A stretch of 64,000 nucleotides of DNA from Octopus vulgaris (Eukaryota). The notes beneath the pieces are model-generated. The model saw only the letters and a program-made list of their open reading frames with translations. It ran no database searches and was not told the origin of the DNA. Of the stretch, positions 6,889-63,130 are shown in pieces (within the stretch, counting starts at the first letter, position 1; every line of letters begins with the position of its first letter). Where the stretch lies: contig OX597825.1 of the NCBI GenBank assembly GCA_951406725.2, positions 18,724,001 to 18,788,000 on the forward strand. Reading direction: 5' to 3'. The translations under genes and the position numbers were made by a program.

Positions 6889-6949
6889 ACTGTGTGCGTG
6901 TTTGTATTGCGTTATATATACACATACGTAGTCATATATTCATTTATTC

Positions 6950-7140: not shown

Positions 7141-7194
<54 letters not shown>

Positions 7195-7300
7195 AATATA
7201 TATATATATATATTCACACACACACACACATATATTGCAGCAATATATATATGTCTGCATGTATGTATCTTTCACTCTTCTCTCTCCCTCTATATCTCTC

Positions 7301-9923: not shown

Positions 9924-10147
9924 TACTCTTTTACTCTTTTACTTGTTTCAGTCATATGACTGTGGCCATGCTTGAGCACCGCCTTTGGTCGAGCAAATTT
10001 AACCCAGGACTTATTCTTTCTAAGCCTAGTACTTATTCTATCGGGCTCTTTTGCCGAAACGCTAAGTTACGGGAATATACACACACCAGCATCGGTTGTC
10101 AAGCGATGTTGGGGGGACAAACACAGACACACAAACATACACACACA

Positions 10148-10210
<63 letters not shown>

Positions 10211-10334
10211 CATATATACGACGGGCTTCTTTAAGTCTTTGGTAGGCCCGAGGATGTAGTAGAAGACACATGCCGAGGTGCCACGTAGTGGCACTGAACC
10301 TGAAACCATGTGGTTGGTAAGCAAGCTACTTACC
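9924..10334 (-). mobile_element. SINE family A
   Basis: (TACTCTTT)n tail, internal (TA)n, head with CCATGTGGTTGGTAAGCAAGCTACTTACC. Confidence 0.9.
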
Positions 10335-12599: not shown

Positions 12600-13040
12600 T
12601 TCTCCCAAGAAGGGTCGACGAAGTCGAGTGCCGTTCCCTCCTTGATAGAGATCTATCAGAAGCAACCTTCGTGAGAATCTCCCGCTGGATTTCCAAGTGC
12701 CACCATCTCAAACTATGAATATTGGCTTCAAATTTTGGCACAAGGCCAATAAGTTCGTGGAAGGGAGTATGATGATTACATCAACCTCAGTTCTCAACTG
12801 GCACTTATTTTATCGACCCCGAAATTATGAAAGACAAAGTAGACCTCGATAGAATTTGAACTCGGAACGTAAAGACGGATGAAATACCACTAATCATCTT
12901 ACCCGGGGTACTAGTGATTCTATCAACTCACCGCTTTTCAGACAATGGATGCTAGCAAGCCGTTCCATTCTTTATCTACCCCTACATCCCCTAAAGGTTG
13001 AGTAGACTTGAAGAATCCGTCTTGCAATTATTTAAAATAC
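12600..13040 (-). mobile_element. possible RTE-like LINE 3' remnant, interrupted by a SINE
   Basis: Minus-strand peptides ARRILQVYSTFRGCRGR and ILTKVASDRS resemble the RTE C-terminal RGRPR..W and A.DR..W motifs. Confidence 0.3.
12721..12937 (-). mobile_element. SINE family B (tail type 2)
   Basis: TTTTATCGACCCCGAAA core, AATTTGAACTC B-box, CAAATTTTGGCACAAGG tail. Confidence 0.85.
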
Positions 13041-15502: not shown

Positions 15503-15724
15503 TTAGAAGGGATATATTGCGAGGGAAAATTCCTAACGTGTACGATTTCCTTCGGCACCCGCCCGCAGTGGTTGAAATAAAGGTCACTTCTTGTATAGTT
15601 TTCAGCTCCGTAGCTTCGACGTATGCCTATACTTTTCGTGATTTAGGTATAAAGTGAGAACTGAATATGACGCTTTTTTTCCTTAGCTTCAAATGAACAC
15701 ACGTCTAGTAGATATATGATCAAA

Positions 15725-15956
15725 AGGCGGTAAGCTGGCAGAATCGTTAGCACGCCGGGCGAAATGCTTTCCAGTATTTCGTCCGCCGCTGTGTTCTAAG
15801 TTCAAATTCCGCCGAGGTCGACTTTGCCTTTGATCCTTTCGGGGTCGATAAATTAAGTACTAGTTACGCACTGGTGTCGATGTAATCGACTTAATACCTA
15901 TATCCGTCTTTGTTTGTCCCCTCTGTGTTCAGCCCCTTGTGGGTAATAAAGAAATA
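15725..15956 (+). mobile_element. full-length SINE family B (tail type 1) with 18-bp TSD
   Basis: AAGGCGGTAAGCTGGCAGAA head to GGGTAATAAAGAAA; TAGATATATGATCAAAAG on both sides (15709-15726 and 15955-15972). Confidence 0.92.
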
Positions 15957-16200
15957 GATATATGATCAAAAGTGTTGTGGTAGAATTTAATCGTTTTCAA
16001 GTACTTTTGTTCTTAAAGTCATGTTTCTCGCAGGCTGGCTACGGTCTCATGCCGTTGCTGTGATGTTAGAAACTTGGTGCGACACATCTTAGTATTTTAA
16101 TTGATTCAGTTTATGCTGTAATACCACTTTGAAGAATTTCGTCAAACAAATCGACCCGAGTACTTAATTTTTCCGGTCATTTTTCATAGCATTTTTTTCC

Positions 16201-16412: not shown

Positions 16413-17525
16413 TTGTAAAAATGAAGTTCGAAAATGCTGCTGTATTATACAATTTTTAATTTTTATATATACATTATAACATGTTTCAGTTCCTGAAATG
16501 AACCTTATCAAAAAAAGTTATATATAAAAAAAGACAGCTCATGCCGTCAAACACAAGAAATTCATTTATAATACACAACGGAGTCAGACATCTTAGAGTT
16601 CATGTATAGTTGATATATAGTTCATGTATAGTTGATATATAGTTTGAAGTATATGTTCAAAGTGTTCGTTGCAGTGGCCCACGGTGGCGATACGTATTCA
16701 ATACAAAAAACAGATCAAAGTGGTGGAAAGCGGTCAATACAGAAGATTGATGTTTCCGAAAGAGCGAGGAATTCATTTTTACCTTAAGCAATTGTGATGA
16801 CCCATGGTGGAAGTTCGCTGGGTGGTTCTAGTGAGTTTTTGTGAAGTGCTCGGTTTTATAATGCCTGTTAGGTGGTCAATCCAGCGTAGCGTGACGTCAT
16901 CAACGTTTTGACCAATCGTTTCGTTAGGTGGCTTTAGTCAAGTAGAACGGGACGTCATCATTATTTTCACCAATCGCTGCATTATAACTGCCTCTTGTTT
17001 GTTTCCTGTTTTGACCAGTCGCTTCGTTAGTCAAGTAGAACGGGACGTCATCATTATTTTGACCAATCGCTGCATTATAACTGCCTCTTGTTTGTTTCCT
17101 GTTTTGACCAGTCGCTACGTTAGTCAAGCAGAACGGGACGTCATCCAGATTCTGCCCAATCACGACTTATAGCTACATTAGATCTGCCCCCTGTCTGTAC
17201 TTGTTAGGTGACTAGTCAAGCAGAAAAGGACGTCATCAATATTCTGACTAATGACTGTCCCCTGTTTGTATCCTGTCCATTCTAGCAGAGCTAGACGTCA
17301 TCAACTTGTTGACCAATCAGAATCGGGTCTGACCCTTAGCTGTATCGTATGTATCAGGATCAGATTTGCACGAAAGAATTTTTTTCCTTTTTTTACTAAG
17401 GCATATTTCCGTCAGAGTGAGTGTCTGTTTGAAGTAGAGGCCGTGGTGGAATTTTGCTTCTCCTTTTCGGAGGACTTATCTTTTGTTTTAGTATTCCTGG
17501 CCCAGGGTGTTTAAACTTGGTCTAA
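16404..17525 (-). mobile_element. probable Penelope-like element 3' remnant with repeat array and terminal degenerate hammerhead motif
   Basis: Minus-strand peptide CLSKKRKKILSCK resembles the GIY-YIG C-terminus; TTGATAA-GGTTC..GAACT-GAAACATGTTA near the end; (TA)n on both sides. Confidence 0.45.
16892..17320. repeat. 93-bp-period minisatellite containing GACGTCATCA and CCAAT motifs
   Basis: Units start at 16937, 17030, 17123 and ~17215; explains the 31-aa repeat ORF at 16924-17163. Confidence 0.9.
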
Positions 17526-19109: not shown

Positions 19110-19830
19110 ATCGTTCGAGCGTTGCATTAATTGTCACGGATCTTTAGAATGAGCTCAAATCCTGCAGAAATCAACTTTGCCATTCATTTCTGCTAGACCA
19201 ATAAAATAAAGTATCTGTGAAGTACTACGTTTAATACAATTCACTATTACATTTTCCTTCAAAATTGGTGAACTTCTTCGTATATTAGAAATAGAAGACA
19301 GCGAAATGGTTGAATCGATACATCAGCAGACAAAATACGTAGCAGTATATCAAACGGTTTTAAAATGTGTTAATTAGTATATCTTTCGGGGTCGATAAAT
19401 TAAGTACCAGTTACGCATTGGGGTCGATGTAATCGTCTCAATACCTATGTCTGTCCTTGTTTGTCCCCTCTGTGTTTAGCCCCTTGTGGGTAATAAAGAA
19501 ATAGGTATTTCGTCTGCGTTACGTTGTGAGTTCAAATTCCACCGAGGTCGACTTTGCCTTTCATCCTTTCGGGGTCGATAATTTAAGTACCAGTTATGCA
19601 CTGGGGTCGATGTAATCGACTTAATACCTATGTCTGTCCTTGTTTGTCCCCTCTATGTTGAGCTCCTTGTGGATAATAAAGAAATAAGTATATCTAGCAG
19701 TTTTACCCCATGAGGTGATTTTGCCTCCTTTAGTTGATAAAATAAGTATCAATTGAGCACTCGTGTTGATGTAATCGAAGAGCCAACGAATCCCAAATTT
19801 CAGACTATCATCCTATAATACAAAAAGCTG
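19110..19830 (+). mobile_element. cluster of family B SINEs including a tandem tail-1 dimer (19383-19686)
   Basis: Two consecutive GGGGTCGATAA...TAATAAAGAAATA units joined at 19503/19504, with older copies on either side. Confidence 0.85.
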
Positions 19831-20108: not shown

Positions 20109-20137
20109 TGATGATGATGATAATATTAATAATAATA

Positions 20138-20355
20138 ATGGCTTCAAATTTTTCCACAAGGGCAGCAATTTTAGGGGAGGGGATAAGTCGTTTACATCGA
20201 TGCCAGTGTTTCACTGGTACTTAATTTATCGACTGCGAAAGGATGAAAGGCAAAGTCAACCGCGACAAAGTTTGCACTCAGAACGTAAAGACAGACTAAA
20301 TACTGCTAAGCATTTCGCTCGGCGTGCTAACCTTTCTGCCAGATCACTGCCCTTT
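20138..20355 (-). mobile_element. SINE family B (tail type 2) between (AAT)n and (GAT)n
   Basis: Core and B-box match other B copies. Confidence 0.85.
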
Positions 20356-20934
20356 AATGATGATGATGATGATGACGATGAACGAACTCTACCGCCAGTC
20401 GGAGATATTTACTCGACTGCGATTTCAAATTCATGTAACTATTATATATATATATAGTACTACGCAGATTTTCTTCGTTTTTCACTTCTACTAATGAGAC
20501 GATACATTCATTGGCAGAAGCACATAGTTCTCCAGATAATCGGTCATTCTCTTTGCGTATGTTACGCAAAATTAGAAAACAATGGCAAATGTACCGAGAA
20601 ACAATAAACGGAATTACGTGATAGACGAAAGGACTGAATTTGAACGATGTCCGAAGCAAGTTTCAGGCCATTAATAATATCCCCCACACCAATTAGGTGA
20701 CCATTGCAGCATTACCGAAACCAAATATACACAGATGCAAATTGCACTAAAGAATATATAACTTAGAGATTCAAATATTAAACCACATAAACAATACACG
20801 ATTCCATAAGAATTGGCGATAGTTGTTGACGAATCTTGAAATCAAGGCTGTAAAATATGGCTATTAACAACGTATATTTAGTGTTCTTTTGCTATTTCGA
20901 AATTGTGGATCTTGTGTTGTTGGTTTAATAGTTT

Positions 20935-21776
20935 TACATTTTGGTATAGGGGCTGTAGTTTTAAGGGGGATGAGGATGTTGATTACATCGACCCCGGTAC
21001 TTGACTGATACTTATTTTATCAGCGCAAAACGATGAGAAGCAACGTTTATCTTGGTGGGATTTTGAAATCATAACGTAAAGACCAGCCAAATGTCGCACA
21101 GAATTTTGTTCTGCGAGATAACGATTCTTATTTCTTTACAGCCCACAAGGGGCTACACACAGAGGGGACAAATAAGGACAGACAAACGGATTAAGTCGAT
21201 TATATCTACTCCAGTGCATAACTGGTATTTATTTTATCGACCCCGAAATGATGAAAGGCAACCTAGGCGGAATTTGAACTCAGAACGTAAAGACAGATAA
21301 AATACATATTTCTTTATTACCCATAAGGGGCTAAACACAAAGGGGACAAACAAGGACATACATAGGTATTAAGTCTATTACATCGACCCCAGTGCGTAAC
21401 TGGTACTTATTTTATCGACCCCGAAAGGATGAAAGGCAAAGTCGACCTCGGCGGAATTTGAACTCAGGGCGTAACGACAGATAAAATACCGCTAAGCATT
21501 TCGCCCGGCGTGCTAATGATTCTGCCAGCTCATCACCTTAAAGTGGTTAGTAATAGTCATCTTATTGCTGTCTGGAATAATGAAAGTAATCACAATGATA
21601 TGGTTAGTAATATTGATTATACTGATTCCTCTGTTCATCTGGTTCTTATTTTATCGACCTCTAAAGGATGAAAGTTAAATTGACCTCGGTTGGATTGGAA
21701 ATCAGAACCTATAGACGCACGGAACGCTACTAGTATTTTGCCCGGCATGCTAACCATTCTGGCAGCTGGCCGCCTT
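20935..21776 (-). mobile_element. cluster of family B SINEs including a tandem tail-1 dimer (21129-21540)
   Basis: Full copy 21307-21540 followed on the minus strand by a head-truncated copy 21129-21305; degenerate copies at 20935-21128 and 21635-21776. Confidence 0.85.
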
Positions 21777-22427
21777 GAAGAAATTACTAAATTTGTTAAC
21801 CATGTACATGTACATAACAATGTGGATTAAGATTATGCTATTAGGATTTTCCAAAATTTCACATCAGATTAAAAATGAACATCAGCGATGCATCTACCAA
21901 CAGGCGGCTAAAATACGTACCAACCTAATTGATTCTCAAGAACAGTTAGCGTATATCTAAGAAAACCGCTGTTAAGAAACACTATCAGTATACAGAAGAG
22001 ACTCGAGAAATCGCATTATGGTATCAAATTCTGTTATCCAGTTGCGTAATTGTATATATGCTTGTATACTCAAAGTTATAAACAATATGTAAATTTTAAA
22101 AAAGATATCACTACAAATATCAGCTGAGAAATTGACAGTTACAGATGGAAATTATGATATAAAATATATTCTACAAAGGAAGCAAGTAAAATGACACAGA
22201 TGAATGTATGTAGCACTTCCAGATGTGTAAATAACTAAAAACATCATACAACGACGAACAAGAACGACTGAAAACACACAAATTGTTAAAAACATGAGAG
22301 TTAAAATGATTGATAGGAAGTAAAATGTGTGCTTTCAAAATTGCTCTTTCGTAGACAAAATGTAAAAGTAATTTAGACACGATACACGATAAAATCATAA
22401 GCAGCGATGAAATACCCATTGATGAGT

Positions 22428-22860
22428 ATTGGTTTCGAATTTTGGTACAAGGGCAGCAATTTCGTGGGAGGGGTTTAGTCGATTGCATCGGACCCAGTGC
22501 TTAACTGGTACTTATTTTATCTAATCCGAAAAGAAGAAAGGTAAAGTCGACCTCGTTGGAATTTGAACTTAGAACGTCAAGACAAATGAAATGCCCCTAA
22601 CGATGCCGCCAGGTCGCAGCCTTATTCAATGAAGAATATTAGAAGCATTTTAAGGCGGTGAGCTGGCAGAATTGTTAGTACACCGGGCAAAGTGCTTAGC
22701 CGCATTTTGTCTATTGTGAGATCAAATTCCGCTGAGGTTGACTTTGTATTTCAAACTTTGGGGTTGATTAAAGAAGAGTAATTCAAGTGCTGGGTTCGAT
22801 GAAATCGACTCCTGCCTCCCATTAAACCATGACGGCCTTGTGCCAAAATTTGAAACCAAT
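22428..22860. mobile_element. head-to-head inverted pair of family B SINEs (22428-22625 minus, 22652-22860 plus)
   Basis: Both carry tail type 2 (CTTGTGCCAAAATTTGAAACCAAT) in opposite orientation, ~26 bp apart. Confidence 0.8.
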
Positions 22861-23522
22861 ATTATATTAGAAACATTTTGGAAACCAACTGCGGAAACGA
22901 ATTTGGGCAGTAAAAGCACACTGCATGACTATTCTGGTAAGACAATTCGATTGAAATTGGGAAAAACAAAAAAGATATCATCCTAAAAGAGTACAAAATC
23001 TCTTTTGAAGCTTCTTTACGATGAAAAATGCAATTTGTAACTTTAAAATATTGGTGTATATCGTTTCACCTACCGTAGTGCCACACAAAAGTTATATTCA
23101 GTACCCTCTGAAAAAGTTCAGTCCAAATATCTGGATTATTTTCTCATACCAATGATTCTCAAGAAGAGACAAAGGAACAATTTATGTAACAATATACCAA
23201 CACATACTCGATAGTAATTTATAAACTGCTTCTTAAAATACTTCCGAACACGAATATCGAACAAGTACAATAGAAAGAATTTCATATTTTCAGTAAAAAA
23301 GGGGGGAGTTATACTTGAGTCCTGTGACACGATATCGAATAAAAATTGGCTCTGGATAACGCCAGACAATAACAACAAATAAACTTTCATTTGCCTGGAT
23401 CGAAGAGAAGAAAGTTTTTTCGATACAATATTTTATGACTCGTTTAAGAGAGGTCCATTAAATGGTGACAGCATGGTGAGCTACATTAACAGCAATGAAA
23501 TGTAGGAGACAATTCATAGCTG

Positions 23523-25969: not shown

Positions 25970-26480
25970 CTTCACTAACTGAATAAATGTACAGGGGTCG
26001 ATGTATATTACGGTGCGCTCCGTGCATTAGCAGCATAATTTGCAGGAATGATGGCCGTGCTTATGATGTTTTATTCTCAATCATTGATTTGCATCGAAGC
26101 TTAAATCACGTTACAGGTCAGTGTCTCAGGGGTACTTCATTTAAACTGTATAGATTTTCTGGATTACGCTCTCCCGACAGCAGCATTATTCATCTATTCG
26201 TACTTTGCAAAATTTTAAATGCGCTGGAGAAGGAAGGGGCTAAAACATTATCAAATATACAAGCTGCACAAAAGAACCCCTGTAAAAAATCACCAGGTCT
26301 GGTCGGCGTTTTTGAGAGATGCAGCATTGAGGATGAATGAAACCAGCTCAACCCCTTCTGGGCAGTAAAGAAATATATTTGAAATACTGCCACTCCTAGA
26401 GACAAGGACACTTAGTGTACGCATGTACAGTCTCAGTTACAAATGGCAAGCCAATTGAACAGAACGTGTTCGGAGTAGAT
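25970..26480 (+). pseudogene. possible piggyBac-like transposase C-terminal remnant
   Basis: Frameshifted peptides TGVDV, *WP and VLFSIIDL in the order of the piggyBac GGVD..RRWP..F..IID motifs; no TTAA-bounded ends found. Confidence 0.3.
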
Positions 26481-29093: not shown

Positions 29094-29364
29094 CGTATTC
29101 ACATAAGAATTTCATATCGAGAAATTTTGGAACGTCTTACAATTCTTCATTTACTGAATCCGCATCGCTCTCTTTTGCTCTTTCTTCGGGAAACTGGGTA
29201 TTTCTAGGTTTTGTGAACATTTGTTTTTACATAACCCCATGCACCATCAGAGGTGCATGGGGTTATGTAAAATAAAAGAATGTATTTATCTACGCATGTA
29301 AGCATATATGTACGTATGTATGTGTTTGTGCGACTGTGTAACGATATGTACTGGCAAATGATAT

Positions 29365-29780
29365 TCTTACTCTTTACTCTTTTACTTGTTTCAGTCATTT
29401 GACTATGGCCATGCTGGAGCACCACCTTTTTAGTCGAGCAAATCGACCCCGGGACTTATTCTTCGTAAGCCTAGTACTTATTCTATCGGTCTCTTTTGCC
29501 GAACCGCTAAGTTACGGGGACGTAAACACACCAGCATCGGTTGTCAAGCGATTTTGGGGGGATAAACACATATACACATACATATACATATACATATACA
29601 TATATACGACGGGCTTCTTTCAGTTTCCGTCTACCAAATCCACTCACAAGGCTTTTGGTCGGCCCAAGGCTATAGTAAAAGACACTTGCTCAAGGTGCCA
29701 CGCAGCGGGACTGAACCCGGCACCCGGAACCATGTGGTTCGTGAGCAAGCTACTTACCACACAGCCACTCCAACGCCTAC
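29365..29780 (-). mobile_element. full-length SINE family A with 17-bp TSD
   Basis: GTACTGGCAAATGATAT at 29348-29364 and 29781-29797. Confidence 0.93.
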
Positions 29781-30437
29781 GTACTGGCAAATGATATGAA
29801 CTTTTGAGAGAAAATCATTAGTAATAGTTGCCCCTATTGATTTGTTCAGTGAAAACTTCCTCCTTCTCACCAGTATAAATACAATGCGCTAGTGATTTAT
29901 CCAGATAGAATCTTACAGCCAACGATGCTGTATTCACAAAAATTCTGCGTAAAATAAGAAATTAATTTACATGTATCATTTATCACGTTAGATAACCACA
30001 TTTCTGTTAGAATATAAGCTTCTTAATTATCAGATAACATTTCAGCAATCACATTAATTTCAATACAGCTATAGCAATAGCTGCCTTTACGTTACCCTCG
30101 AATACAGGCTATAACATCTCCAATAGTTTCTGTTCCCACGCAAACCACTTTGCATAACATTTAATGCAGATGACTCGTACGCATCTTCCGTTCATATCAA
30201 ATGATAAATAACATTTAGCGACCAATAAATTTTAAAAGTCATAGGCAAAATGAGACCCGCAGGAATTTCTGACTGGCGGGCCAAATGTAAAACTGCCTTA
30301 ATTTCCTTTTTTTCTGTTTTTACTAAGCCGTGCAGTTCGCTTGATAAGAAGCTTTGTCAAATGCGATCTGCTTATCGAAAAAAGGTTGCCCATTCCCGGG
30401 TTCATTTACTTCGACCAGTACATAAACCGTATCTATA

Positions 30438-30865: not shown

Positions 30866-31127
30866 AGAATTTATTAATTTAGTAGATAACATGTGCCTTT
30901 ATAGGAACTTATGATATATAGAAAGTTTATTCAGTCTTCATTTATATTAATCTCTGTTCTGAAGTTCCATCACCCACCACCTTTTTGCTCATGTCCACCA
31001 GTAGGGGAATATGCCCACCCTGAGAAGCCCTAATATAGAGGTTCAAATCTGTTACGGGTTTATATTCGTCTATAATCGTACTTTATATTCTCAATATCAT
31101 TGTTGTAATACTACGCAGATATTATTG

Positions 31128-31315
31128 ATTTGAAATTTTAGTACCAGGTCAGTAAGTTCGGCGGAGGAAGATAGTCGATAAAATTGAACCTTATACTCAA
31201 CTGGTACTTGTTTTATCGACTCCGAATCAAATTTGAACTCAGAAAATAAGGACGGACGAAATATAGCTGAACATCTTATCCGGTGTGCTAATGGTTTTGC
31301 CAGCCCGCCACCTTA
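31128..31315 (-). mobile_element. SINE family B, degenerate
   Basis: CTGGTACTTGTTTTATCGAC, AATTTGAACTCAG, GCCAGCCCGCCACCTT. Confidence 0.75.
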
Positions 31316-32859
31316 AAACGCAGATGATATGATGGGATATACGCACTGGGATAATTGTGAAAAAACTACTGTTGCCTCTGTATTCATTGCTTAAACAATC
31401 ATGAATGATATTTGTCAGGATTCAATTTATCAATTAGCTCAAATAAAGTATCTGCATCCATAAACCTTTCTGTCTATCTCGGTTTAATTGAGCTAATATC
31501 GTTGATGTTCATCTTGACTTCATGTTTATTGACGATTGTAAAAGAAATACAAGCAGAGTGTGGATATTATGTTCATGGTGTTCGGTGACGGATGAAATAT
31601 TCCGCTAAGATATTACTACCATGCATGTGAAGTGAAGCAATGCAGTTGAGCTAAATGAAATATGTAAATATATTGAGTTTATAGTTTTCCAGCACGAAAA
31701 AAAAAAAAAAAATTCTATGCAGCAATGATATAGAATACAATAGAAAACGGGAATAAGTGGACGCCTTAACAAGAGGTTACATTCCGTTGATACGGTCGGA
31801 GAGTGTAATGGTGTGGCGATTTTTCTTTTCTTTTCTTAAACCCAACGTCAAAGCTTATTAAACAAATACAAGACATTCAAACCGTGAATGTGCGTCATTC
31901 TTTTTAAAGCAGCGTATATCGACCATCCGCATCATCTAAAATGTCCTCGAATTTTTATGGTGTTCGGGTTTGATTTGAAGTCGAGGTAATTGCTTTTTAT
32001 AGCAGAATGAGCAGCTCCGTAGACGCCAAAACTTTGGCGCGTGTAAGATGTTATTTGGTGTGGCTTTCAAGTGTTGATTGATTCAGAAACCGCACTAAGA
32101 ATAAAGTAGTATTCTAATCTAGAAAGGCTTACTGCTTTCTAGATACACAGACATATATAAACGCTCACGCATACACATATATATTTAAATAGATAAAAGC
32201 GACTTCAAATTTCATCCAAACTGGCTTAGCAAACACCAAATAAAGAATTAGATTTGTAGTACAAATAAATTTTAGTAATGTGAAGAAGTGGACTGAAATT
32301 AGTTGATAGGTGAAGTAGAATGATGGAGAAAGGAAAGAAAAGTAAAGTGGATGGCGAAAAAGGCTAAGAAAGAATTTAATTGGTATAATATAAAAGAACT
32401 CGAGAATAAAATCCCAAAGTGGAATCGTGCTTAGTAATTTAATGGTTTGAGTAGAGTTTAGATATACTTCTGCCGAGAAATTTTATTTTAGCGGTTGGAT
32501 ATTATCTGCAAAACTAATTCTATAAAGAAATTAAAATTTGCTTAGGATCATGCTTAAATGGAGATAGCATGATATAGTCGTGTGTAAAGTATAAAATATT
32601 GTGAGATTGATTTTGGTGAGAATTATTATAAATATTTTTTTTTCTTTCCTTAGTCTGGAAGAAAGAGAAGTGCCAAAGACATTTATCAAGTCCTCTCAGA
32701 CCTTCATGCCGTAAATGACCCGTTAAAAAGTTTTAAGAACACTTGTAGGAAAGACATGTCGACTGATATAAAGTTTACACGGGGCATATGTTGTAAGTAG
32801 AGAAGAACTGGCCAGAGATCTTAGCGTGTGGTTTGGGGTTTGTTGCGGTGGACACTGTT

Positions 32860-35811: not shown

Positions 35812-36664
35812 AAACATATATATACACGCATATAAATATTTGGGGGTGTAGTTGTGTACTCCATATTTTGAAAATATATTTTCGTTCTACTTGTATTATA
35901 TTATTTAGATTAATTTTTACGTATTTTTCAATATTTAGCCATACATTCTTTTTGAAAACCTTTATTTCAGAACCATCATCAATGCTACAAATATTTGGGA
36001 GGTGCAGTATTATTCACTTGCGTAAGAACAACGCTTATACTCGCTATTATCGATATCTGTAGATTTTTGCAACTGGATTCTGAAATCCTTGGTTAGTAGT
36101 TTTAGGATAGATGCGTATTCTATATATTTGCTTTAGTATTATGTTGTATTATGAAAAATTCTTCTATCATTAAAATTTTATATTTGTGTGGAATTCTATA
36201 CAATATAGACGAGCTGTCCACACACGTTTCCCTCTCTCTCTTTCTCTCTCTCCTCCTCAGTATGTGTATGTATATATATATATATACAAGCACACAAATA
36301 CAAACATATTTTTGTATTACAGTTAAATAGTAATTAAGACAAGAAAACAAAACCATATAATGTTGCAGTTCTATTCACGCGCATGCGTGTGTACTTATGC
36401 GTGTGTGAGTGTGCGCGGGTGCGTATGTGGTTATGCGTGTGTGAGTGTGCGCGCGTGTATGAGGATGTGTTGTGTGTGTGCGTGCATATATGAGTGTGAG
36501 TGTGAATGTGCATCTTGGTAATAATTCCTAATAAAATATATTCGAAAATTTGATGAATCTTTTCTAATATTCGAGTTGGAATCCTCTAGGCAACTAACCA
36601 AGAAGTATAATATATTCTGTTGTCAGGCCAAAGAAAAGAAAATTATCTACTATATTACAACATC

Positions 36665-36876
36665 CTATTTCTTTATTACCCACAAGGGGCTGAACATAGA
36701 GGGGACAAACATGGGTAGACATAGGTATTAAGTCGATTATATCGACCCCAGTGCTTAACTGGTACTTAATTTATCGACCCCGAAAGGATGAGAGGCAAAG
36801 TCGACCTCGGCGGAATTTGAACTCACAACGTAACGGCAGACGAAATACCGCTAAGCATTTCGCCCGACGTGCTAAC
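36665..36876 (-). mobile_element. SINE family B (tail type 1), young
   Basis: Near-identical to 21307-21540 and 15725-15956. Confidence 0.92.
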
Positions 36877-38614
36877 AACATCCACCACAACGTCCACTCC
36901 TTCCTGTACGGTGGTTTGTGTGTTTCAGTGACCCTAAGATCTTTCAGCAGTACACAAGCTCCTGACAGGGGTACAATAGTCGGAGGTATATGGTAAGGTA
37001 GTGAGTGAACTCATAGTGCGCAAAGGAAGGAAGTGACAAGATCAGTTCCTGTTCACAGAGAAGGTTGGATTCCGAGTGGCCTCTGTGCAGAGACAGTCCG
37101 AACCGAGTCAGATATATATATGTATATATATATATATAGTTAACTTTTCTGTTAAGATAAGATCAACAAAAAGAGTAGTCCATCCAGTGTGGGATTAAGA
37201 TTATTTAATGTACGCAGCATATTTTTATTACGAGCAGATAATATTTTCATGCTTCGGAAATACAGTCTAAGTAAAATTTCGTAACACGCTCGCAGACATA
37301 CTTATGTTATTGTAACCTGCCTAATTTACATCTTGCTGTGTAAAACTATTTGTAGCTCGAAACTATATACAGCATGCATTAAATATTATTATATATGGGC
37401 ATATTAGTAAGTACCCCCCCCAAAAAAAAAAAACAGGAGCATACACACATACTTAAACATACATGCACACACATATCGAAAAAGAGAGAAAATGAGAGAG
37501 TGGAACGTGATGGATGAATTGGAGGAGATCCCAGAAAATTGATAAATTATATTTTGTTTACATTTCGATCCAATTCTGCCCGAGGTCTTTTGTATTTATG
37601 TGTATATTCCAGGTTCTATAGTAGATGTGATAGACAAATACTGATGTTAATAAAATCAACATAACTCTGGCCGCAAAATATCTGTCACTCTATTTCTATC
37701 GAAAAATATTTTTAGTTGTTTCTGAATGTTTAGGAAACTCGTATATAAGAGTTAACAAAATGTTGGTGCAAATGATATTACGGTAGGAAAGTGCTTATTT
37801 CATTGGCTACGAAGTAAACAGATTCAGTTACTGGATTTACCTTCATTAGGAAACTAAAATCTTATAAAATATACATATGTGTGTGTGAGTCAGTGAGTGA
37901 GTAAGTGAGTGATTGAGTGAGTGAGTCTGTGTGTATTTATGCGTACATGTAATTTGAGAATGTATTCATATATACACCCACACACACACACATATATATA
38001 TACATATCTATTTATCTATCTATGTGTGTATGTATTTATCGTTTGTAAATGTCATGAGCTTTTTAAATGTGATTGCTGTAACGAATCTAATATAATATGT
38101 ATTACACAGGCCACATCATAAACAACTCAATATGTTAAACGAGATACATGTCAAACCACCAATATACTCCCCCCCCCTCCGATATAAGTACCATCTATCG
38201 CATTAACATGATTCAAAGCTTTTTTTGTCAACCACAGAGACACTCCAAAAATATACTATTTATATTTCAAGAATCAACAATGAAATAATAACATACCCAG
38301 ACAGTCATACAAACACAAACAAAACTTTTTGAAAATATATGAAATAATTAAGTTAAGAGATGAATTTGCAGTCGTATTCATATGAAATCTATTTCTATTA
38401 TCGAAATTTATCGATTTCCTCCATAATAAAATACAGCATACGTTTATTTAAAAGAAAACGCTATTTATTTGTTGAAGTATATCTATTTTTCCTCATGCAG
38501 CACAAATGTAATCCCCTTTTGCAAAATAAATTCGAGTGGCCATTCAAATGTTTCGACTCTCATATTAATAACCAAATTATTAAAATCGACACCGCTCAAT
38601 TATGTATATGTATG

Positions 38615-39549: not shown

Positions 39550-39978
39550 TTACTCTTTACTCTTTACTCTTTACTCTTTTACTTGTTTCAGTCATTTGAC
39601 TGCGGCCATGCTGGAGCACCGCCTTTTAGTCGAGCAACTCGACCCCGGGACTTATTCTTTGTAAGCCCAGTACTTATTCTGTCGGTCTCTTTTTGCCGAA
39701 CCGCTAAGTTACGGGGACATAAACACACCAGCATCAGTTGTCAAGCAATGCTAAGGGAACAAACACAGACACACAAACACACACGCACACATATATATAT
39801 ATATATATATATACATATATACGACGGGCTTCTTTCAGTTTCCGTCTACTAAATCCACTCACAAGACTTTGGTCGGCCCGAGGCTATAGTAGAAGACACT
39901 TGCCCAAGGTGCAACGCAGTGGGGCTGAACCCGGAACCATGTGGTTGGTAAGCAAGCTACTTACCACACAGCCACTCC
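39550..39978 (-). mobile_element. full-length SINE family A
   Basis: (TACTCTTT)n tail, internal microsatellite, complete head. Confidence 0.93.
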
Positions 39979-40175
39979 AAGCTTATGTATATTCAAGTGG
40001 AACGTTTGTTTAATCTTAAATACTCTCTTAATGAAAATATTCATAGATTAGCTAAATTTGAATTATTTAACTGCAACTAGTCCTCGCTTCTATTTACCGG
40101 AAGACCATCGTACAAAATTACTTGTCTAATATAAAGTTTGAAATAGAAAATCTATTCATACAACTGTATAGATTA

Positions 40176-40560: not shown

Positions 40561-41252
40561 TATGTGAGTTTGCGTCTATTTTTGAGACTTTCTCTCTCCC
40601 ACTCTTTCTCACTCTCTCCTTCTGCATGTGTATGTGAGTGCATGAGTGAGTGTTTGTATATGTGGAGGGGTGCACGCGCATATGTGCGTATGTGTGCATG
40701 CAGCGATAAAGGAACAGAAAATATGTATAACAAAATATTGCTTAGAGATTATTTATCAATTCCATTGCATTACCTGTTTGGCAAATGATCTCATTTATTT
40801 TCATCATTGGAGAATAAAAGTGCATCGTTGTATCGGATTATTGGTCAAAGAAAAATTCATATTCATAAATATAATGCGCTTTAAAAAACAACAATATGAA
40901 ATAATATTAATTATTAATGTCATCCGTCGAAAATCTACGACCTGTACGTTGATAATCTTTTTCTGTTTATCGTATTAACGTTACAAATTGAAATGATTAG
41001 TCTGACTTCCTCATTATTTCTTAAGTCGATATTAAACAATCATTTCGAAGTTAATATATATTTTGTCTCATGCCAAAAGTTTACGTTTCAGGAAATGATA
41101 AATTCAGGTTCTCATACCACTGATGAACCCTATTCGTCGCTTGCCTGGCTTGTTGCCAAACACGTGTGTGTGTTCTCGAATCATCATTGTAATTGTGAAC
41201 CACTTTTAGATTTTGGATCGGTCTCATCTTCGCAATAGTCTCTCTCTCTCTC

Positions 41253-41667
41253 TTTTTACTCTTTTACTTGTTTCAGTCATTTGACTGCGGCCATGCTGGA
41301 GCACCGCCTTTAATCGAGCAAAACTGGACCCCGGGTCTTATTCTTTGTAAGCCTAGTACTTATTCTATCGGTCTATTTTGCCGAACCGCTAAGTGACGGG
41401 GACATAAACACGCCAGCATCGGTTGTCAAACAATGCTAGGGGGACAAACACAGACACACAAACACACACGCACACCCACATATATATATATACACATATA
41501 TACGACGGACTTCTTTCAGTTTCCGTCTACCAAATCCACTCACAAGGCTTTGGTCGATCCGAGGCTATAGTAGAAGACACTTGCCCAAGATGCCACGCAG
41601 TGGGACTGAACCCAGAACCATGTGCTTGGTAAGCAAGCTAATTACCACACAGCTACTCCTGCGCCTA
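41253..41667 (-). mobile_element. full-length SINE family A
   Basis: Complete head AGGCGCAGGAGTAGCTGTGTGG; AGTCTCTCT on both flanks. Confidence 0.93.
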
Positions 41668-41709
41668 AGTCTCTCTAACCTTTTCTTTCTTTTCTGTCTT
41701 TCTTTTTAA

Positions 41710-43237: not shown

Positions 43238-43312
<75 letters not shown>
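43238..43312 (+). repeat. (TATC)n microsatellite on the 5' flank of the LINE
   Basis: Directly visible. Confidence 0.97.
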
Positions 43313-43846
43313 GGGCCAGGGCCCATGGACAACTTCCAGAGATCCCTGGCCTGGCAGTGCTACCGAGAAGCGCTACCCGTTCGGGATAAGCTCTACAGAC
43401 ACGGCTCGAGAAACACGGGGCCGACCTGCCCGAGATGCGGTCAGAGCGACGAAACCGTTCTGCACGCACTCGTTCAGTGTCCAACAATTTCCGACCTGTG
43501 GGCTTATGTCGAACAACTGCTGTCACGTGTGGGACGAGTCGGTTTATCAGCTGAGTCTATCGTCAATATTGTCACGCCTCCTTCCTTCAAACGGGAAGGA
43601 AGAGCTATTTTCATCATCCTTGTGGCTATGGCGAAAGAATGTATCTGGTGGACGCGTCTGAAAGGATTGGAGACAAACACTTTCCTCTCTGGTCAATCTC
43701 TCATCAACTTCTTCAAGTACCACTTGAAAAGGAAAGTGAGAGTAGAGAGGCAAGTTTTGTCTAGCGAATGTTTTAAAAAAAGATGGGTGAATGTAGCAAG
43801 AATGGCACGTATGAATGACGAAGCCACCTTGAGCATAGTCCTATGA
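43313..43846 (+). CDS. truncated retrotransposon ORF2 C-terminus (CCHC zinc finger, zf-RVT-like); no genuine start codon
   Basis: ORF 43235..43846, whose N-terminus is microsatellite; ~177 stop-free codons with CxxC-ET-H-C. Confidence 0.75.
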   Translation, partial: GPGPMDNFQRSLAWQCYREALPVRDKLYRHGSRNTGPTCPRCGQSDETVLHALVQCPTISDLWAYVEQLLSRVGRVGLSAESIVNIVTPPSFKREGRAIFIILVAMAKECIWWTRLKGLETNTFLSGQSLINFFKYHLKRKVRVERQVLSSECFKKRWVNVARMARMNDEATLSIVL

Positions 43847-44222
43847 ACCCAGAAATCGAAAACAGAGAGTTGCTTATTTGCAAAAAAAAAAAAAAAGAAA
43901 TATAAAATGTGACTTCATTGACCGAGGTTACCGTGGTCTTTTCCGTAGGCTTTTCTTTCCACGGGTAAACCTCACCTGTCCTCCCCTTTACACTTCATAT
44001 TGACATTTCTGTGATAACGATCCCTATTGATCAATTTTTTTTTCTCTCCCCCTTTTTTTTTAACCCCCTTTTTTTGTCCTCTTTCTCTCCTTTTACGATC
44101 CCTTTTGATCGAAACTCCCCCTTCCTTTTTTTTTTTTTTTTTTTTTTAAACCTTCAAAAGAAAAGCTCTACCTTGTAATTTGTTCTATCTGTGTGCAGCC
44201 CTGTGTGGCTAATAAAGAAACA
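43313..44222 (+). mobile_element. 5'-truncated Tx1/L1-clade non-LTR retrotransposon (ORF2 C-terminus plus 3' UTR)
   Basis: Uninterrupted frame with zf-RVT-type motif W..YREALPVRDKL...CPRCGQSDETVLHALVQC; higher GC than flanks; T-rich 3' UTR; AATAAA at 44211-44216; (TATC)n on both sides. Confidence 0.88.
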
Positions 44223-44690
<468 letters not shown>

Positions 44691-50648: not shown

Positions 50649-51105
50649 TTTGGTAGACGGAAACTGAAAGAAGCCTGTCGTATATATGTATATATATGTA
50701 TGTGTGTTTGTGTGGCTGTGTGGTAAGTAGTTTGCTAACCAACCACATGGTTCCGGGTTCAGTCCCACTGCGTGGCATCTTGGGCAAGTGTCTTCTGCTA
50801 TAGCCCCGGGCCGACCAATGCCTTGTGAGCGGATTTGGTAGACGGAAACTGAAAGAAGCCTGTCGTATATATGTATATTTATGTATGTGTGTTTGTGTGT
50901 CTGTGTTTGTCCCCCTAGCATTGCTTGACAACCGATGCTGGTGTGTTTACGTCCCCGTCACTTAGCGGTTCGGCAAAAGAGACCGATAGAATAAGTAATG
51001 GGCTTACAAAGAATAAGTCCCGGGGTCGATTTGCTCGACTAAAGTCGGTGCTCCAGCATGGCCGTAGTCAAATGACTGAAACAAGTAAAAGAGAGTAAAA
51101 GAGAG
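50649..51105 (+). mobile_element. SINE family A, young, with an upstream duplicated internal segment
   Basis: TTTGGTAGACGGAAACTGAAAGAAGCCTGTCGTATATATG occurs at 50649 and 50834; tail CAAGTAAAAGAGAGTAAAAGAG. Confidence 0.92.
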
Positions 51106-51705
51106 ATATATATAGTAGGTATTTCTACTGTAGCACTGAATCCGAGCTTTGGGCTATCTACATTGTAATATTTCAGACTCACGAAAGTAAAGCGGTTTTG
51201 ATGCTTTGCTGAAGAGTAATATATAATTCAAATAAGAAGAAAAAGAAAGACTTTAACACGTCTTTCATGGTCACTTATAAATGCTTCTGCTTTCAACAAA
51301 GGTTCACTCAAAATTTCCAAGGTAAAGTTCATGTCGTATTTGCGGCTTTAAACGTTCGAGTGGCACTTCGTCAGACCAGCATCAAATTTACGCTCTTACA
51401 CTAGAGTTGGTTAAGGATGTGTTAAAGTCCGTCTTTGTCTTCTTATTCAGATTGTATGAATGTGTGTGTGTGTGTGACAACAGATTTCTTTACTTTAGAA
51501 AAATAAATGAATATGGAACCAAATACTAATAACATTAAAACAAAAAACAAAACACAAAACGCACGTAGACGGGCACATATACATATATGTGTGTGTATAC
51601 ATATGTATACCTACACACATATATATATATATATATGACGTAATTATACTCAATAATAATAGCTGTTTCGGTACATTTATCTATATATATCATAATACAT
51701 AACAC

Positions 51706-56279: not shown

Positions 56280-56580
56280 TGGTGGTGGTAAGCGTCGAGC
56301 TGGTAGAACCGTTATCACATATGGCGAAATGTTTAGCGGCATTGCGTCCGTCTTTACGTTCTGAGTTCAAATTCCGGCGGGGTCATCTTAGTATTTCATC
56401 GTTTCGGGGCCGAGTACTACTATCGATGTGATCACCTTACCCCTCAAATCGAGTTTGCCTTTCATCCTTTTGATATCGGTGACATAAGTACAAGTTGACC
56501 ATTGGTGCCGATGTCCTCAACTAGCCCCCTCACCAAAAATTTCAGACCTTGTACCTATAGTGCAAATGGTTATTGTTATT
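56280..56580 (+). mobile_element. SINE family B (tail type 2) with a duplicated core, following (GGT)n
   Basis: GAGCTGGTAGAACCGTTA head, TTCTGAGTTCAAATTCC, two TTTCATC(G/C)TTT cores. Confidence 0.75.
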
Positions 56581-57082: not shown

Positions 57083-57285
57083 CTATCTACTCTCGCCTCG
57101 CTATTTCTCTCTCTCTCTCTCCCTCTCTCTCTCTATCTATCTAATTATCCTTCTCGGTCTCTCACTTTTTCGCAATTTATGTGTGTATGTGAGTGTGCGT
57201 GTGTGAGTGTGTGTGCACAAGTATAGATGTTTATACATAGGCGTGTGTGTGTATGTGTCCGTACAATAAACTACACAGGTATGTA

Positions 57286-57356
57286 TACTCTTACTCTTTT
57301 TACTCTTTTACTTGTTTCAGTCATTTGACTGCGGCCATGCTGGAGCACCGCCTTTA
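57286..57356 (-). mobile_element. SINE family A 3' terminal fragment
   Basis: TACTCTTTTACTTGTTTCAGTCATTTGACTGCGGCCATGCTGGAGCACCGCC. Confidence 0.85.
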
Positions 57357-58248
57357 ATGATGAGGATAAATATATATATGCGCGCGTGTGTGTATATGTC
57401 CGTGCGCGATACGAAGATATATATATATATACGCACACAGAGATTCACTCGCACATATATGTGTGCATAGATGTATATTGTATGTTGGAGGCGGGGCTAA
57501 CTGAATGAGAAGGGAGAGAGAGAGAGTGAGAGAGAGAGCGAGAGCGGAAAATGGTAAAATCCAATCCATAATAAGAGAAATAACGTGACAAAGAAAATAT
57601 TCATGCATGGATCTGGCTACCTCGGTAGCTGGTCATTCTTACTCAACTAGAAACATCGCATCAGGATTAGTAAAGCAAACACTTTAGGTTTACTGAGCAG
57701 GAAGGAAGGTACTTTGACAGCCTGTCTCTATTAGCAATCAAAGGAGTGGCAAAGTATGAAAATTTCAAAGCATATACTTCGAAAATAGTGACAGAATTTC
57801 ATCTTGAATAAAATTTAGAATAATATATTTGCGGTTATATTTCGTTTGTAAGCTATTCATTTACGCCATGTGAAATGAACACATGGGAAGCTGGGAAATT
57901 GATCCGAATATCAGTGAAAATAACAGCCATCTGAAAATAACGCATCTCGAAGGAGATATACGGTATGAATAACGTATATGTAAGGGAATTATCATAATAT
58001 TTCCGGTATTGATAAGCATTAAATATGACAGAATATTAAATCCTGTATTGATATTACTATTTCCATGTAAGAAAGAGGTTAGTCATAACTGTTACTAATT
58101 TAGCCAAATCGCCAGCGATTTTGAGGGCAGGACGTATTCGGTCTTAATGTCTGTCGTGCGTAGAATATTTACAGATTTTTCGTACACACACTCAGACACA
58201 CATAAGTGCACGCACAATAACCCACAAACACATGAAAACACACACACA

Positions 58249-59991: not shown

Positions 59992-61465
59992 CAGCCTTGG
60001 CCAAAATTAAGTAGCAGGTATGAAAAAATACAGAATATGATTGAAACCCATATTCTAATTAGCTTTTTGAAAATATTTTTGCACCTTCCCTCTTGTACCT
60101 AAGTGTCACCACAAATGAAACCAGTACAATAAACATGCTAGATTCTATCCCATCAATAATTAGTGTTTGATGTGTCCTATTTTTGCTTTTATATCCCCTT
60201 TTATGCGATTTTCATACTTGAGACTACGTTGATGAATGTGGCTTGGTCAATGTTCTATCGTTATTTCTTATTCTTTCGTTGAATATATTATTGATAACTT
60301 ATCAGTGGTTAATAGTTCTTGTAAATATCTCCAAAATAATAGATTCCTAAGACACAAAGGTCTCAAATCTTTGCATTATCAAGTGAAGGATTCTCCCAAG
60401 TTGAAATTGCAAAAAGTTGAAATGCTCAAGAAAAGCTGTCCGTCAACAAGTACAATGAGACAAATTCTTTCAAAATTTGTAAAGGACGAGGTTGCAAAAA
60501 GTGTACAACCACAAGGGAAGACAGGTTGCAGCAGACATCTCTTGCGTATCAAAAATACCTCTTTTGACGTAGCTACTAAGTTTCGGGTTGCAACCAACAA
60601 GGATATATCAACTCACACATTGAGAAGATTATTAGAAGCTGGGCATAAAGGATGTAGGAAGTCGTTTCTGCCTGAGGTAAACATGAATAAGCGATTGGAC
60701 AAAAGATTATGGAGAATTGAACTGGCGATCATTGGCCTAAAGTTGTTTAATCTCATGAAAGTAACTTTGATGTAGGGTCTCTACATTTTTCAGATCTTTG
60801 GAACCACTGGAGCTGTTAATGTTCACCATAGAGTTGGAGAGGCTTGTCGTCCTGGATGTGTGGTCCCAGCAGTGAAATTTATATGGGGAAGAGTAATTTT
60901 GGGGTGCTGCATGTCGTCTTCAGGCCCAGGAATGTTGTTCACTTCCGAGGACAGAATGAATTCCAAAACTTACACCAGCATGTTAGATCAAGATTATCAA
61001 TCTTCCTTAGCTAAAATTTTCTCTGATAACATGCCAGGTGGCATAATAATTCAACGGGCCATTGCTCCATGTCACACATCCAGAAACTCATTGGCTTGGT
61101 GAGGAGAAATGGATGAGGGTAATGAACTGGCCCCTTCAGTCTCCAGACCTCAATCTCATTGAACATTTCTGGTGACACTTAGGTACAAGAATGAGGGTCC
61201 AAAAATGTTCTTCAACAAGCGAATTAGAAGCCAAAATTCAGGAACAGTGGCAGACAATCGGCGCGGTCACTTGCGCCAACTTTGTCTGAAGTATGCAAAA
61301 ACTTATAAAAGAGGTTATAAAAACAAAAGGAGGACGCATCAAATGCTAATTGTTGGTGAGATAGACTCTGTAATGTTTATTATATTGTTTTCAATCATTA
61401 AGTAAATGAGTTTCAATCATATTCTCTATTTTATCATACCTGTTCCATAATTTTGACAAACGCTG
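59992..61465 (+). mobile_element. full-length defective Tc1-family DNA transposon (about 1.47 kb)
   Basis: ~60-bp imperfect TIRs (CAGCCTTGGCCAAAATT... and ...AATTTTGACAAACGCTG), TA on both sides. Confidence 0.92.
60400..61350 (+). pseudogene. Tc1-like DDE transposase pseudogene
   Basis: Frameshifted motifs: TLRRLLEAG (HTH), SHESNF (for SDESKF), VVPAVKF..G, QRAIAPCHTS (for QDNAPCH), WPLQSPDLNLIEHFW, SMQKLIKEVIKTKGG. Confidence 0.9.
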
Positions 61466-62196: not shown

Positions 62197-63130
62197 GAGG
62201 ATATTCCACTTCGGGGGAAGGGCGCAAAATACATATATATTAGGAACTGGATATTGCCACAAAGTACCCGGTGAACGAGAGAGACAATAAGCTTTTGTAA
62301 TCCCATGTGTAATCGCTTGTGTAAGCTATGCCATGTCTATGTGGAAGACGTCACGCATGTGTAAGCTATGCCATGTCTCTGTGGAAGATGTCACGCATGT
62401 GTAAGGTATGCCATGTCTCTGTGGAAGACGTCACGCATGTGTAAGCTATGCCATGTTTCTGTGGAAGACGTCACGCATGTGATTAGCAGCTGTGCGAAAA
62501 TGTCGTCACGCTACTACCTCCCTATGTTGCACGATGTTGTTGCTAAAACAATTTACAATGACATACGGAAAAATGACTGTCCTGAAATAAACATAGAAAA
62601 CCCACTGCTATATAATACTTTCATGAGTACCAATTCAAGGCAAACTGGTGCATTATTTCCGTCAAAATGTCTGTCAAGTGTAAACATAACAGGCCGGATA
62701 TTGTTGTTTAGGACAAAGGGGCAAAAGTATGAACCATCACGGAGAACAGCTGCCCTACAGATATATATATATCTTTGAAAATCAAAGAAAATGAGGATAT
62801 CTATGGACAACTGCTTCAAAAACTAAATCACAACTATCAATTCATATACATACCAATAACAATTGGAGCAGTAAGTATTGTTAGTAAATGCTATTGTTAG
62901 TAAAGGAGAATCTGGATAAACTGGAATTTTCAGAAAGAGAAATCGACCGACTTATTCGCACATTACAAGTGCAATCTATGAGTGGAACAATAAGATTACG
63001 CAAGACTTTTCTCAAGTTCCAAATGTGAATTTCTCTGTGTTAACTACATCCCAAACCTGGAGCCTTGTATCTTTGTCGGAAACTGGTTTCCGCCTCGGTA
63101 GAAGATTTATAATAATTAAGAAATAGAATA
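62197..63130 (+). mobile_element. REL-endonuclease non-LTR retrotransposon 3' part (R4/Dong/NeSL-like), degenerate
   Basis: Peptides ELDIATKY, CKLCHVSVEDVTHVISSC (CCHC), YLPMLHDVVAK, KCKHNRPDIVV, ENSCP, IPITIGA and KTFLKF* in REL domain order. Confidence 0.85.
62319..62481 (+). repeat. 4 x 40-bp tandem repeat of the zinc-knuckle coding segment
   Basis: GTAAGCTATGCCATGTCT(A/C)TGTGGAAGACGTCACGCATGT at 62321, 62361, 62401 and 62441. Confidence 0.95.

What the first reader, a model, noticed from the sequence alone, without database searches (positions are those of the whole stretch)
44171..44222. The LINE's last ~50 nt match the tail of SINE B1: a candidate Tx1-LINE/SINE partnership visible in one window
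Seen: LINE end CCTTGTAATTTGTTCTATCTGTGTGCAGCCCTGTGTGGCTAATAAAGAAACA versus SINE tail CCTTGT---TTGTCCCCTCTGTGTTTAGCCCCTTGTGGGTAATAAAGAAATA (19456-19503; also ~15908-15956, 21129, 21307, 36665). By hand this is 40/49 identical, and both terminate at the same point. Both keep a stem-loop before the A-rich end (AGCC-CTGTGT-GGCT in the LINE; AGCCC-CTTGT-GGGCT in the 21129 copy). Established: stringent LINEs recognise a 3' stem-loop that partner SINEs copy, whereas mammalian L1 needs only poly(A). Inference: B1 SINEs are mobilised by this Tx1-like family or a relative, yet they insert outside (TATC)n with long TSDs (18 bp at 15725) and form multimers. Together these suggest an undescribed retrotransposition system.
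Basis: partly seen in the sequence, partly recalled or inferred. Interest (0 to 1): 0.85.

Follow-up and report, generated by a model that had tools for sequence, protein, structure and literature searches.

The report
Octopus SINE shares Tx1-like LINE tail
In what is likely an octopus genome, a short parasitic jumping element ends in nearly the same 42 letters as a nearby reverse-transcriptase element, so it likely borrows the copying machinery of that element or a close relative: a familiar arrangement, but one we found no report of for this branch of animal elements.

Summary
The match is real. The last 42 nt of a young, 5'-truncated L1/Tx1-group LINE (43311-44222, inside a (TATC)n tract) are 76-83% identical to the tails of six SINE units, and all end together (0 of 2000 shuffles reach the score). 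The SINE is one head and body carrying three alternative tails; only tail A matches the LINE, as expected for a LINE-derived tail module. The LINE tail differs from the SINE majority at 8 of 42 positions while the LINE body is identical to contigs of two other runs, so a decayed young SINE fragment is unlikely. Not shown: that other LINE copies carry this tail (the read tool skipped it; no genome is held), that the LINE is Tx1 rather than another L1-group clade, or that a stem-loop is recognised (weak, shifted by one base, no compensatory change). No SINE unit lies near (TATC)n, so the actual helper is more likely a relative. The 'multimers' look like SINE-into-SINE junctions. Verdict: probably an ordinary tail-sharing SINE/LINE pair in an unusual clade; no animal L1/Tx1 tail pair turned up in nine literature searches, but Repbase and Dfam were not searchable.

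The parts
43238..43312 (+). (TATC)n tract, 5' flank of the LINE; its last two bases (TC) also fit the LINE
   Evidence: loose ends at 43311
43311..43846 (+). 5'-truncated ORF2 C-terminus (177 aa open frame from 43313, zf-RVT zinc finger) of an L1/Tx1-group LINE; stop at 43844-43846
   Evidence: zf-RVT E 1.9e-08; 76% to P0131, which has endonuclease, RT and zf-RVT
43847..44170 (+). LINE 3' UTR, pyrimidine-rich (208 of 324 nt C or T), with two copies of a 14-nt motif at 44019-44032 and 44097-44110
   Evidence: covered by family contigs up to about 44128
44171..44222 (+). LINE terminus shared with SINE tail A (ungapped core 44179-44220; 4-bp hairpin 44197-44210; AATAAA 44211-44216); no poly(A) follows
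44223..44483 (+). (TATC)n tract, 3' flank of the LINE
15727..15956 (+). Full-length tail-A SINE; A-box-like 15736-15746, B-box-like 15800-15810; 18-bp target duplication 15709-15726 / 15955-15972
   Evidence: the promoter-box reading rests on recalled consensus
19385..19686 (+). 5'-truncated tail-A dimer (units 19385-19503 and 19504-19686) inside one 9-bp target duplication (19376-19384 / 19687-19695)
21129..21537 (-). Two tail-A units (about 21537-21307 and 21306-21129) sharing a private 14-bp repeat (21476-21489 / 21292-21305): likely a younger SINE inserted in an older one; its 3' end abuts the head region of a tail-B SINE
36666..36874 (-). 5'-truncated tail-A SINE with a 9-bp target duplication (36657-36665 / 36875-36883)
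20122..20361 (-). Example of the same SINE head and body with a different tail (tail B); others at about 2118-2337, 12715-12938, 20926-21128, 22422-22613, 22631-22869, 31123-31317
56297..56575 (+). Same SINE head and body (partly rearranged) with a third tail (tail C, weakly like tail B at its start)

Best explanation
One subfamily of a likely tRNA-derived octopus SINE ends in the same 42-nt block as a young L1/Tx1-group LINE copy; it likely took that tail from such a LINE and is likely copied by the ORF2 protein of a close relative of this LINE family. Shown: the co-terminal homology; a common SINE head and body with three interchangeable tails, only one matching this LINE; 9-18 bp target duplications; no poly(A) after either element; the LINE copy sits in (TATC)n and the SINE units do not. 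Inferred: the block is the family's normal 3' end; a template switch placed it on the SINE; ORF2 binds the tail sequence on SINE RNA and primes reverse transcription at a staggered nick; the helper is a sister family, since the tails differ at 8 of 42 positions and the landing sites differ.
For: Homology far above chance and confined to the terminal 42-49 nt. Tail A replaces tail B or C at one breakpoint after a shared body, the modular pattern described for SINEs that change LINE partners (PMC11481361, passages). LINE copy is young: open frame, 0 differences to a 565-nt stretch of an X8 contig that runs 1369 nt further upstream, and to 551 nt of an X11 contig. Its tail differs from the SINE majority at 8 of 42 sites, 5 of them invariant in all six SINE units, whereas SINE units differ at 0-4; binomial P 0.001-0.004 at the observed SINE divergence. 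No TATC or duplication separates UTR and tail. Duplications of 9, 9, 14 and 18 bp at 4 of 5 junction sets tested fit an L1-type staggered cut (established knowledge). A relative's ORF2 matches human L1 ORF2p at E 3e-50 versus R2 at 4e-24. Length and identity fall inside the range accepted for bivalve pairs, 35-61 bp at 72-95%.
Against: Only one LINE copy was seen with this tail: one search gave no depth from 44129 onward because the tool skipped that part as repeat, and two protein searches with the translated tail found nothing useful. If SINE divergence were 10%, P rises to 0.054, so an older SINE subfamily as source is not excluded. About 15-20 nt at the start of tail A do not align with this LINE. 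No structural support: LINE fold z -0.34; consensus fold -4.23 kcal/mol with covariation term -0.26 and the LINE breaking 2 of 11 pairs. All six SINE tails lie 1390-6745 nt from any (TATC)3/(GATA)3 tract. No other LINE clade could be compared.
Confidence: 0.62

Rival explanations
1. This exact (TATC)n-associated family is the mobiliser; its endonuclease or priming is less selective on SINE RNA because the SINE lacks trailing TATC units to pair with the target.
For: The family is abundant and young (24,993 contigs laid in X1, 8,827 in X15). SINEU-1 and -2 show much weaker target preference (23%, 13%) than SINEU-3 (90%) though all are assigned to Tx1-Mar helpers (PMC4494074, part 3 read).
Against: 8 of 42 tail differences, 5 at columns invariant in the SINEs; 0 of 6 SINE tails near (TATC)n. 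TATC specificity of the family itself rests on one copy.
Confidence: 0.2
2. One-off chimera: reverse transcription began on a diverged SINE RNA and switched to the LINE RNA, or a SINE fragment landed at the LINE end, so the family consensus lacks the block.
For: Only one copy seen; SINEs of this family are dense (about 14 units in 64 kb) and join other elements; template switches are described for Tx1-mobilised SINEU. A stray 28-nt tail-like piece exists at 26348-26375.
Against: A fresh SINE-derived piece on a copy with 0 differences elsewhere should resemble a current SINE, not differ at 8 of 42; no SINE body upstream; no duplication around the block; no other candidate LINE end upstream of it.
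Confidence: 0.12
3. Reverse direction: an ancestor of the LINE family captured a SINE tail (for example as a polyadenylation signal), and the SINE depends on some other LINE.
For: Tail A is about 62 nt but only its last 42-49 nt are in the LINE; the block holds AATAAA; insertion sites differ.
Against: The match stops short of the SINE body, inside the swapped module; published pairs are read as LINE-to-SINE (PMC3747384, passages).
Confidence: 0.08
4. Convergence on a poly(A) signal with a U/G-rich upstream region.
For: 11 of the 34 identities are the A-rich end containing AATAAA.
Against: 23 of 31 identities remain upstream; the best of the other 154 AATAAA sites scores 14.
Confidence: 0.02

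Closest known systems
Stringent SINE/LINE tail pairs in molluscs: bivalve V, Core, Meta and Deu SINEs with CR1, CR1-Zenon, L2 and Nimb LINEs (PMC11481361, passages; PMC4824008, passages)
   Same: 35-61 bp terminal homology at 72-95%; one SINE body with several exchangeable tails; 6-18 bp target duplications.
   Different: None of the four partner clades is L1 or Tx1; here no 3' tandem repeat or poly(A) follows tail A.
L1-clade tail pairs: maize ZmSINE2/ZmSINE3 with LINE1-1_ZM; Chlamydomonas SINEX-3_CR with L1-1_CR (PMC3472496, part 1 of 3; PMC3747384 Table 1)
   Same: An L1-group LINE sharing about 50-80 terminal nt with a tRNA SINE.
   Different: These are the only three L1-tail SINEs among 58 pairs in that 2012-2013 survey and none is animal; the maize hairpin has compensatory changes and -10.8 to -17.7 kcal/mol, this one has neither.
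Tx1-Mar LINEs and crocodilian SINEU (PMC4494074, passages and part 3 of 5)
   Same: A Tx1-clade LINE proposed as SINE helper; tandem and chimeric SINE copies.
   Different: That partnership is argued from shared target sites, age and snRNA heads, with poly(A) ends; here there is tail homology but no shared target and no poly(A).
Microsatellite-targeting Tx1 families Kibi (TC)n, Koshi (TTC)n, crocodilian Tx1 (TTCC/TTTC)n (as described in PMC4494074)
   Same: LINE flanked on both sides by one microsatellite.
   Different: Repeat unit is TATC; one copy only; no RT tree against these families could be built.
Octopus tRNA SINEs OK, OR1, OR2 (Ohshima and Okada 1994; seen only as citations for OR1 and OR2; the name OK is recalled)
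   Same: Octopus tRNA-derived SINEs; SINEs make up 11.6% of the O. vulgaris genome (PMC13282606).

Membership tests
Stringent SINE/LINE tail pair | Homologous, co-terminal 3' ends | tested here: met
   32-35 of 42 identical in six SINE units; shuffle controls negative
Stringent SINE/LINE tail pair | Shared segment belongs to the LINE family consensus 3' UTR | tested here: inconclusive
   One search covers the UTR to about 44128 but skipped the tail; uninformative; indirect support from copy youth versus 8/42 divergence
Stringent SINE/LINE tail pair | Conserved 3' stem-loop with compensatory changes | tested here: not met
   0 pairs with a change on both sides in either 4-bp register; registers offset by one; LINE z -0.34, SINE z -0.38 to -2.95 with differing structures; only 7-8 sequences
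Stringent SINE/LINE tail pair | Overlapping age of activity | tested here: inconclusive
   LINE copy 0 differences to two contigs; five tail-A bodies 92-96% and four tail-B bodies 82-87% to a majority that tail-A copies dominate
Stringent SINE/LINE tail pair | Shared insertion signature | tested here: not met
   LINE in (TATC)n; 0 of 6 SINE tails within 1.3 kb of such a tract
Stringent SINE/LINE tail pair | Tail needed for trans-mobilisation | not testable with these tools
   needs a retrotransposition assay
L1/Tx1 group LINE | ORF2 with APE endonuclease, RT and C-terminal zinc finger, closest to L1 | tested here: met
   Shown on relatives: P0131 has all three domains and is 76% identical to the window fragment; P0004 is nearer human L1 ORF2p than R2 among solved structures, the only two non-LTR kinds returned
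Tx1 clade | RT phylogeny groups it with named Tx1 families | not testable with these tools
   No homologue carried a Tx1 name; no labelled reference sequences at hand
Tx1 clade | Target-sequence preference | tested here: inconclusive
   One copy inside (TATC)n; such tracts cover 624 of 64000 bases
tRNA-derived SINE (SINE2) | tRNA-related head with A and B boxes | tested here: inconclusive
   Box-like motifs at 15736 and 15800 by eye against recalled consensus; ARAGORN found no tRNA; no tRNA among the 150 of 301 Rfam hits shown
tRNA-derived SINE (SINE2) | Short, non-coding, dispersed, with target duplications and 5' truncation | tested here: met
   About 230 nt, some 14 units, duplications of 9-18 bp
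Octopus OK/OR1/OR2 SINEs | Sequence identity to the published consensus | not testable with these tools
   Sequences not in the library; motif search of paper texts gave 0 papers

The most novel reading that the evidence does not exclude
An animal Tx1/L1-group LINE lineage that recognises its RNA by a specific 3' tail with no poly(A), and drives a young, abundant octopus SINE subfamily that lands outside the LINE's (TATC)n target and repeatedly at one site in its own head. It would be the first tail-sharing SINE partner for an animal L1/Tx1 element in the literature searched, and would place stringent recognition on the animal side of the L1 tree, next to relaxed mammalian L1.
Probability: 0.4. 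Interest if true: 0.65.

Novelty: new variant of a known kind. Interest (0 to 1): 0.42.

Why it matters
Ohshima proposed that L1-group elements were ancestrally stringent and relaxed to poly(A) recognition separately in mammals and plants, with evidence only from maize, sorghum and an alga. An animal Tx1/L1 family with a tail-sharing SINE would be a missing data point, and the family looks young enough (a copy identical to contigs of two other runs) for a cell assay of tail dependence. It would also name a likely driver for part of the large octopus SINE load. If the tail proves private to this copy, the finding is a trivial chimera.

Tried and rejected
No genome is held for the window, so no copy pile-up. 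Laying four of the 24 listed runs gave no cover over the tail, which the tool skipped as repeat; this is no evidence of absence. Scans for related loci with alignments A1 and A4 found none in metagenome, genome or viral contigs. The tail pattern found 0 in genome and viral contigs and 1 in metagenomes, L001, which has no SINE or LINE context and looks like a chance hit in a microbial coding region. Searches with the translated tail: 14 candidates, none significant; 2 hits at 40-44% in unrelated repetitive proteins. blastn against plasmids and phages: no match. Cluster and Atlas look-ups gave no clade name. tblastn found no second copy of this LINE in the window, and tails B and C matched nothing in the LINE. 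A shared target motif after the SINE tail (purine-purine-N-A-T in 4 of 6 junctions as read, 2.5% background) was chosen after looking at six sites, two of them the same SINE-head position, and is not claimed. Rfam hits were microsatellite artefacts. Five look-ups of earlier scan notes showed nothing on this genome. The octopus genome paper was not held and the supplement of PMC4494074 could not be read; both may bear on novelty and on whether Tx1 ends generally look like this.

Full report
Setting. The window is microsatellite-rich eukaryotic DNA. No whole genome is held. The LINE fragment's protein hits include an Argonauta hians protein (63% over 95% of the query) and two Octopus bimaculoides gene models (97% and 83% over a fifth to a quarter of it), so the source is likely an octopus.

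The LINE. Between two (TATC)n tracts (43238-43312, 44223-44483) lies an open frame of 177 aa with a zf-RVT zinc finger, a stop at 43844-43846 and a 376-nt 3' region. A relative at 76% identity, P0131, has endonuclease, RT and zf-RVT; another, P0004, matches human L1 ORF2p (E 3e-50) far better than R2 (4e-24), the only two non-LTR kinds returned. This places it in the L1/Tx1 group. 'Tx1' is likely from the microsatellite setting but untested: no homologue carried a clade name. Of 24 runs listed, 18 hold half or more of the words. In the four laid 24,993, 2, 51 and 8,827 contigs align; all four show loose ends at 43311 that, read by eye, continue ORF2 upstream, so this copy is 5'-truncated with a 2-nt overlap with the flank. 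One X8 contig matches 565 nt with 0 differences and runs 1369 nt further upstream; one X11 contig matches 551 nt with 0 differences. The copy is therefore young. Cover continues through the UTR to about 44128; beyond that the tool skipped the sequence as repeat, so the tail was not examined.

The observation. The ungapped core is 44179-44220, 32-35 of 42 identical to six SINE units, and identity drops to 1-4 per 10 nt upstream. Controls: score 49 versus at most 30 in 2000 shuffles; among 160 AATAAA sites the LINE scores 23 of 31 upstream against at most 14 for non-SINE sites. After the shared A-rich end each element has two more bases and then flank; none has poly(A).

The SINE. It is about 230 nt, with A- and B-box-like motifs (consensus recalled; ARAGORN negative). 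Only tail A matches the LINE, and only over its last 42-49 of about 62 nt. Tail-A bodies are 92-96% and tail-B bodies 82-87% identical to a majority that tail-A copies dominate (9 of about 14 units aligned), so tail A is probably the younger form. Exact flanking repeats of 18, 9, 14 and 9 bp were found at 4 of 5 junction sets. Both dimers join at the same position of the SINE head. In the 21129-21537 pair the units share a private 14-bp repeat and the downstream unit is the more diverged (67 versus 75 of 78), which reads as a SINE inserted in an older SINE. The 19385-19686 dimer lies inside one duplication, so it likely moved as a unit. Two cases cannot show a target preference.

Is the tail the LINE's own? 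Indirectly, probably. The LINE differs from the SINE majority at 8 of 42 sites, five at columns invariant in all six SINE units, which themselves differ at 0-4 (P 0.001-0.004; 0.054 if SINE divergence were 10%). A young copy cannot have gained these by decay, no SINE body precedes the block, and no flank sequence or duplication separates it from the UTR. An older or unseen SINE subfamily as template remains possible. All attempts to see a second copy failed.

Stem-loop. Not supported. The LINE end folds no better than shuffles (z -0.34; 69 of 200 as good); SINE tails give z -0.38 to -2.95 with different structures. The LINE's 4-bp stem and the SINE's are offset by one base and neither has a pair changed on both sides (these include the stray fragment as eighth row). 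The seven-sequence consensus fold is -4.23 kcal/mol with a covariation term of -0.26, and the LINE breaks 2 of its 11 pairs.

Mechanism. Most likely a template switch gave the SINE the 3' end of an L1/Tx1-group LINE, whose ORF2 then copies SINE RNA by target-primed reverse transcription. The 19% tail divergence, the unaligned start of tail A and the landing sites (1390-6745 nt from any TATC tract) point to a sister family rather than this one. O. vulgaris has 80 L1-Tx1 consensus families, 13 recently active (PMC13282606; part 1 of 3 and supplement search), so candidates exist. Recognition of the tail is inferred from analogy, not shown.

Literature. A survey of 58 pairs lists three SINEs with L1 tails (maize, Chlamydomonas) and no Tx1 pair (PMC3472496 part 1 of 3; PMC3747384 passages and Table 1). 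Tx1-Mar/SINEU is argued from shared targets, age and heads (PMC4494074 passages and part 3 of 5; supplement unavailable). Bivalve partners are CR1, CR1-Zenon, L2 and Nimb (PMC11481361 passages; PMC4824008 passages). PMC5786205 has no occurrence of Tx1 or octopus. Passages of PMC4758252, PMC8967140, PMC5804259, PMC4176376 and PMC11203168 name no octopus pair. Nine word searches and one motif search found no report of this pair. Ohshima and Okada 1994, the octopus genome paper, Repbase and Dfam were not seen, so prior annotation is possible.

Verdict. Observation confirmed; interpretation partly supported. It works like a tail-sharing SINE/LINE pair; membership is not established because the stem-loop and shared-target features were not met and the consensus test was inconclusive. 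Novelty lies in the clade, not the mechanism. Interest 0.42.

Noticed in passing
window 19503/19504 and 21307/21306: Both SINE dimers join at the same nucleotide of the SINE head although their second units differ in sequence; may be a preferred insertion or template-switch site.
   Followed up: partly
window 26348-26375: Isolated 28-nt tail-A-like piece (86%) with no SINE or LINE upstream; an extremely truncated old insertion or chance.
   Followed up: partly
window 44019-44032 and 44097-44110: Two copies of a 14-nt motif beginning and ending with the same 4-nt palindrome in the LINE 3' UTR; one contig type skips the stretch between them.
   Followed up: no
window 20926-21780: Cluster of four SINE units on the minus strand, with a 12-nt repeat flanking the spacer between two of them.
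   Followed up: no
window 6936-7211, 9923-10334, 29361-29783, 39558-39997, 41244-41670, 50649-51106, 57285-57358: A second abundant dispersed repeat family, several copies bordered by a short tandem repeat; probably another SINE.
   Followed up: no
window 16934-17145 and 62314-62481: Minisatellites of 93 bp (2.3 copies, 97%) and 40 bp (4.2 copies, 94%).
   Followed up: no
window 60236-60775: 179-aa open frame that looked transposase-like by eye; Pfam gave nothing above cut-off.
   Followed up: partly
P0008, P0009: Two O. bimaculoides gene models begin with pieces of this LINE's ORF2 C-terminus, probably annotation artefacts from intronic copies.
   Followed up: no
P0006: A 67%-identical relative is filed under a Herbaspirillum metagenome-assembled genome; likely eukaryotic contamination.
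   Followed up: no
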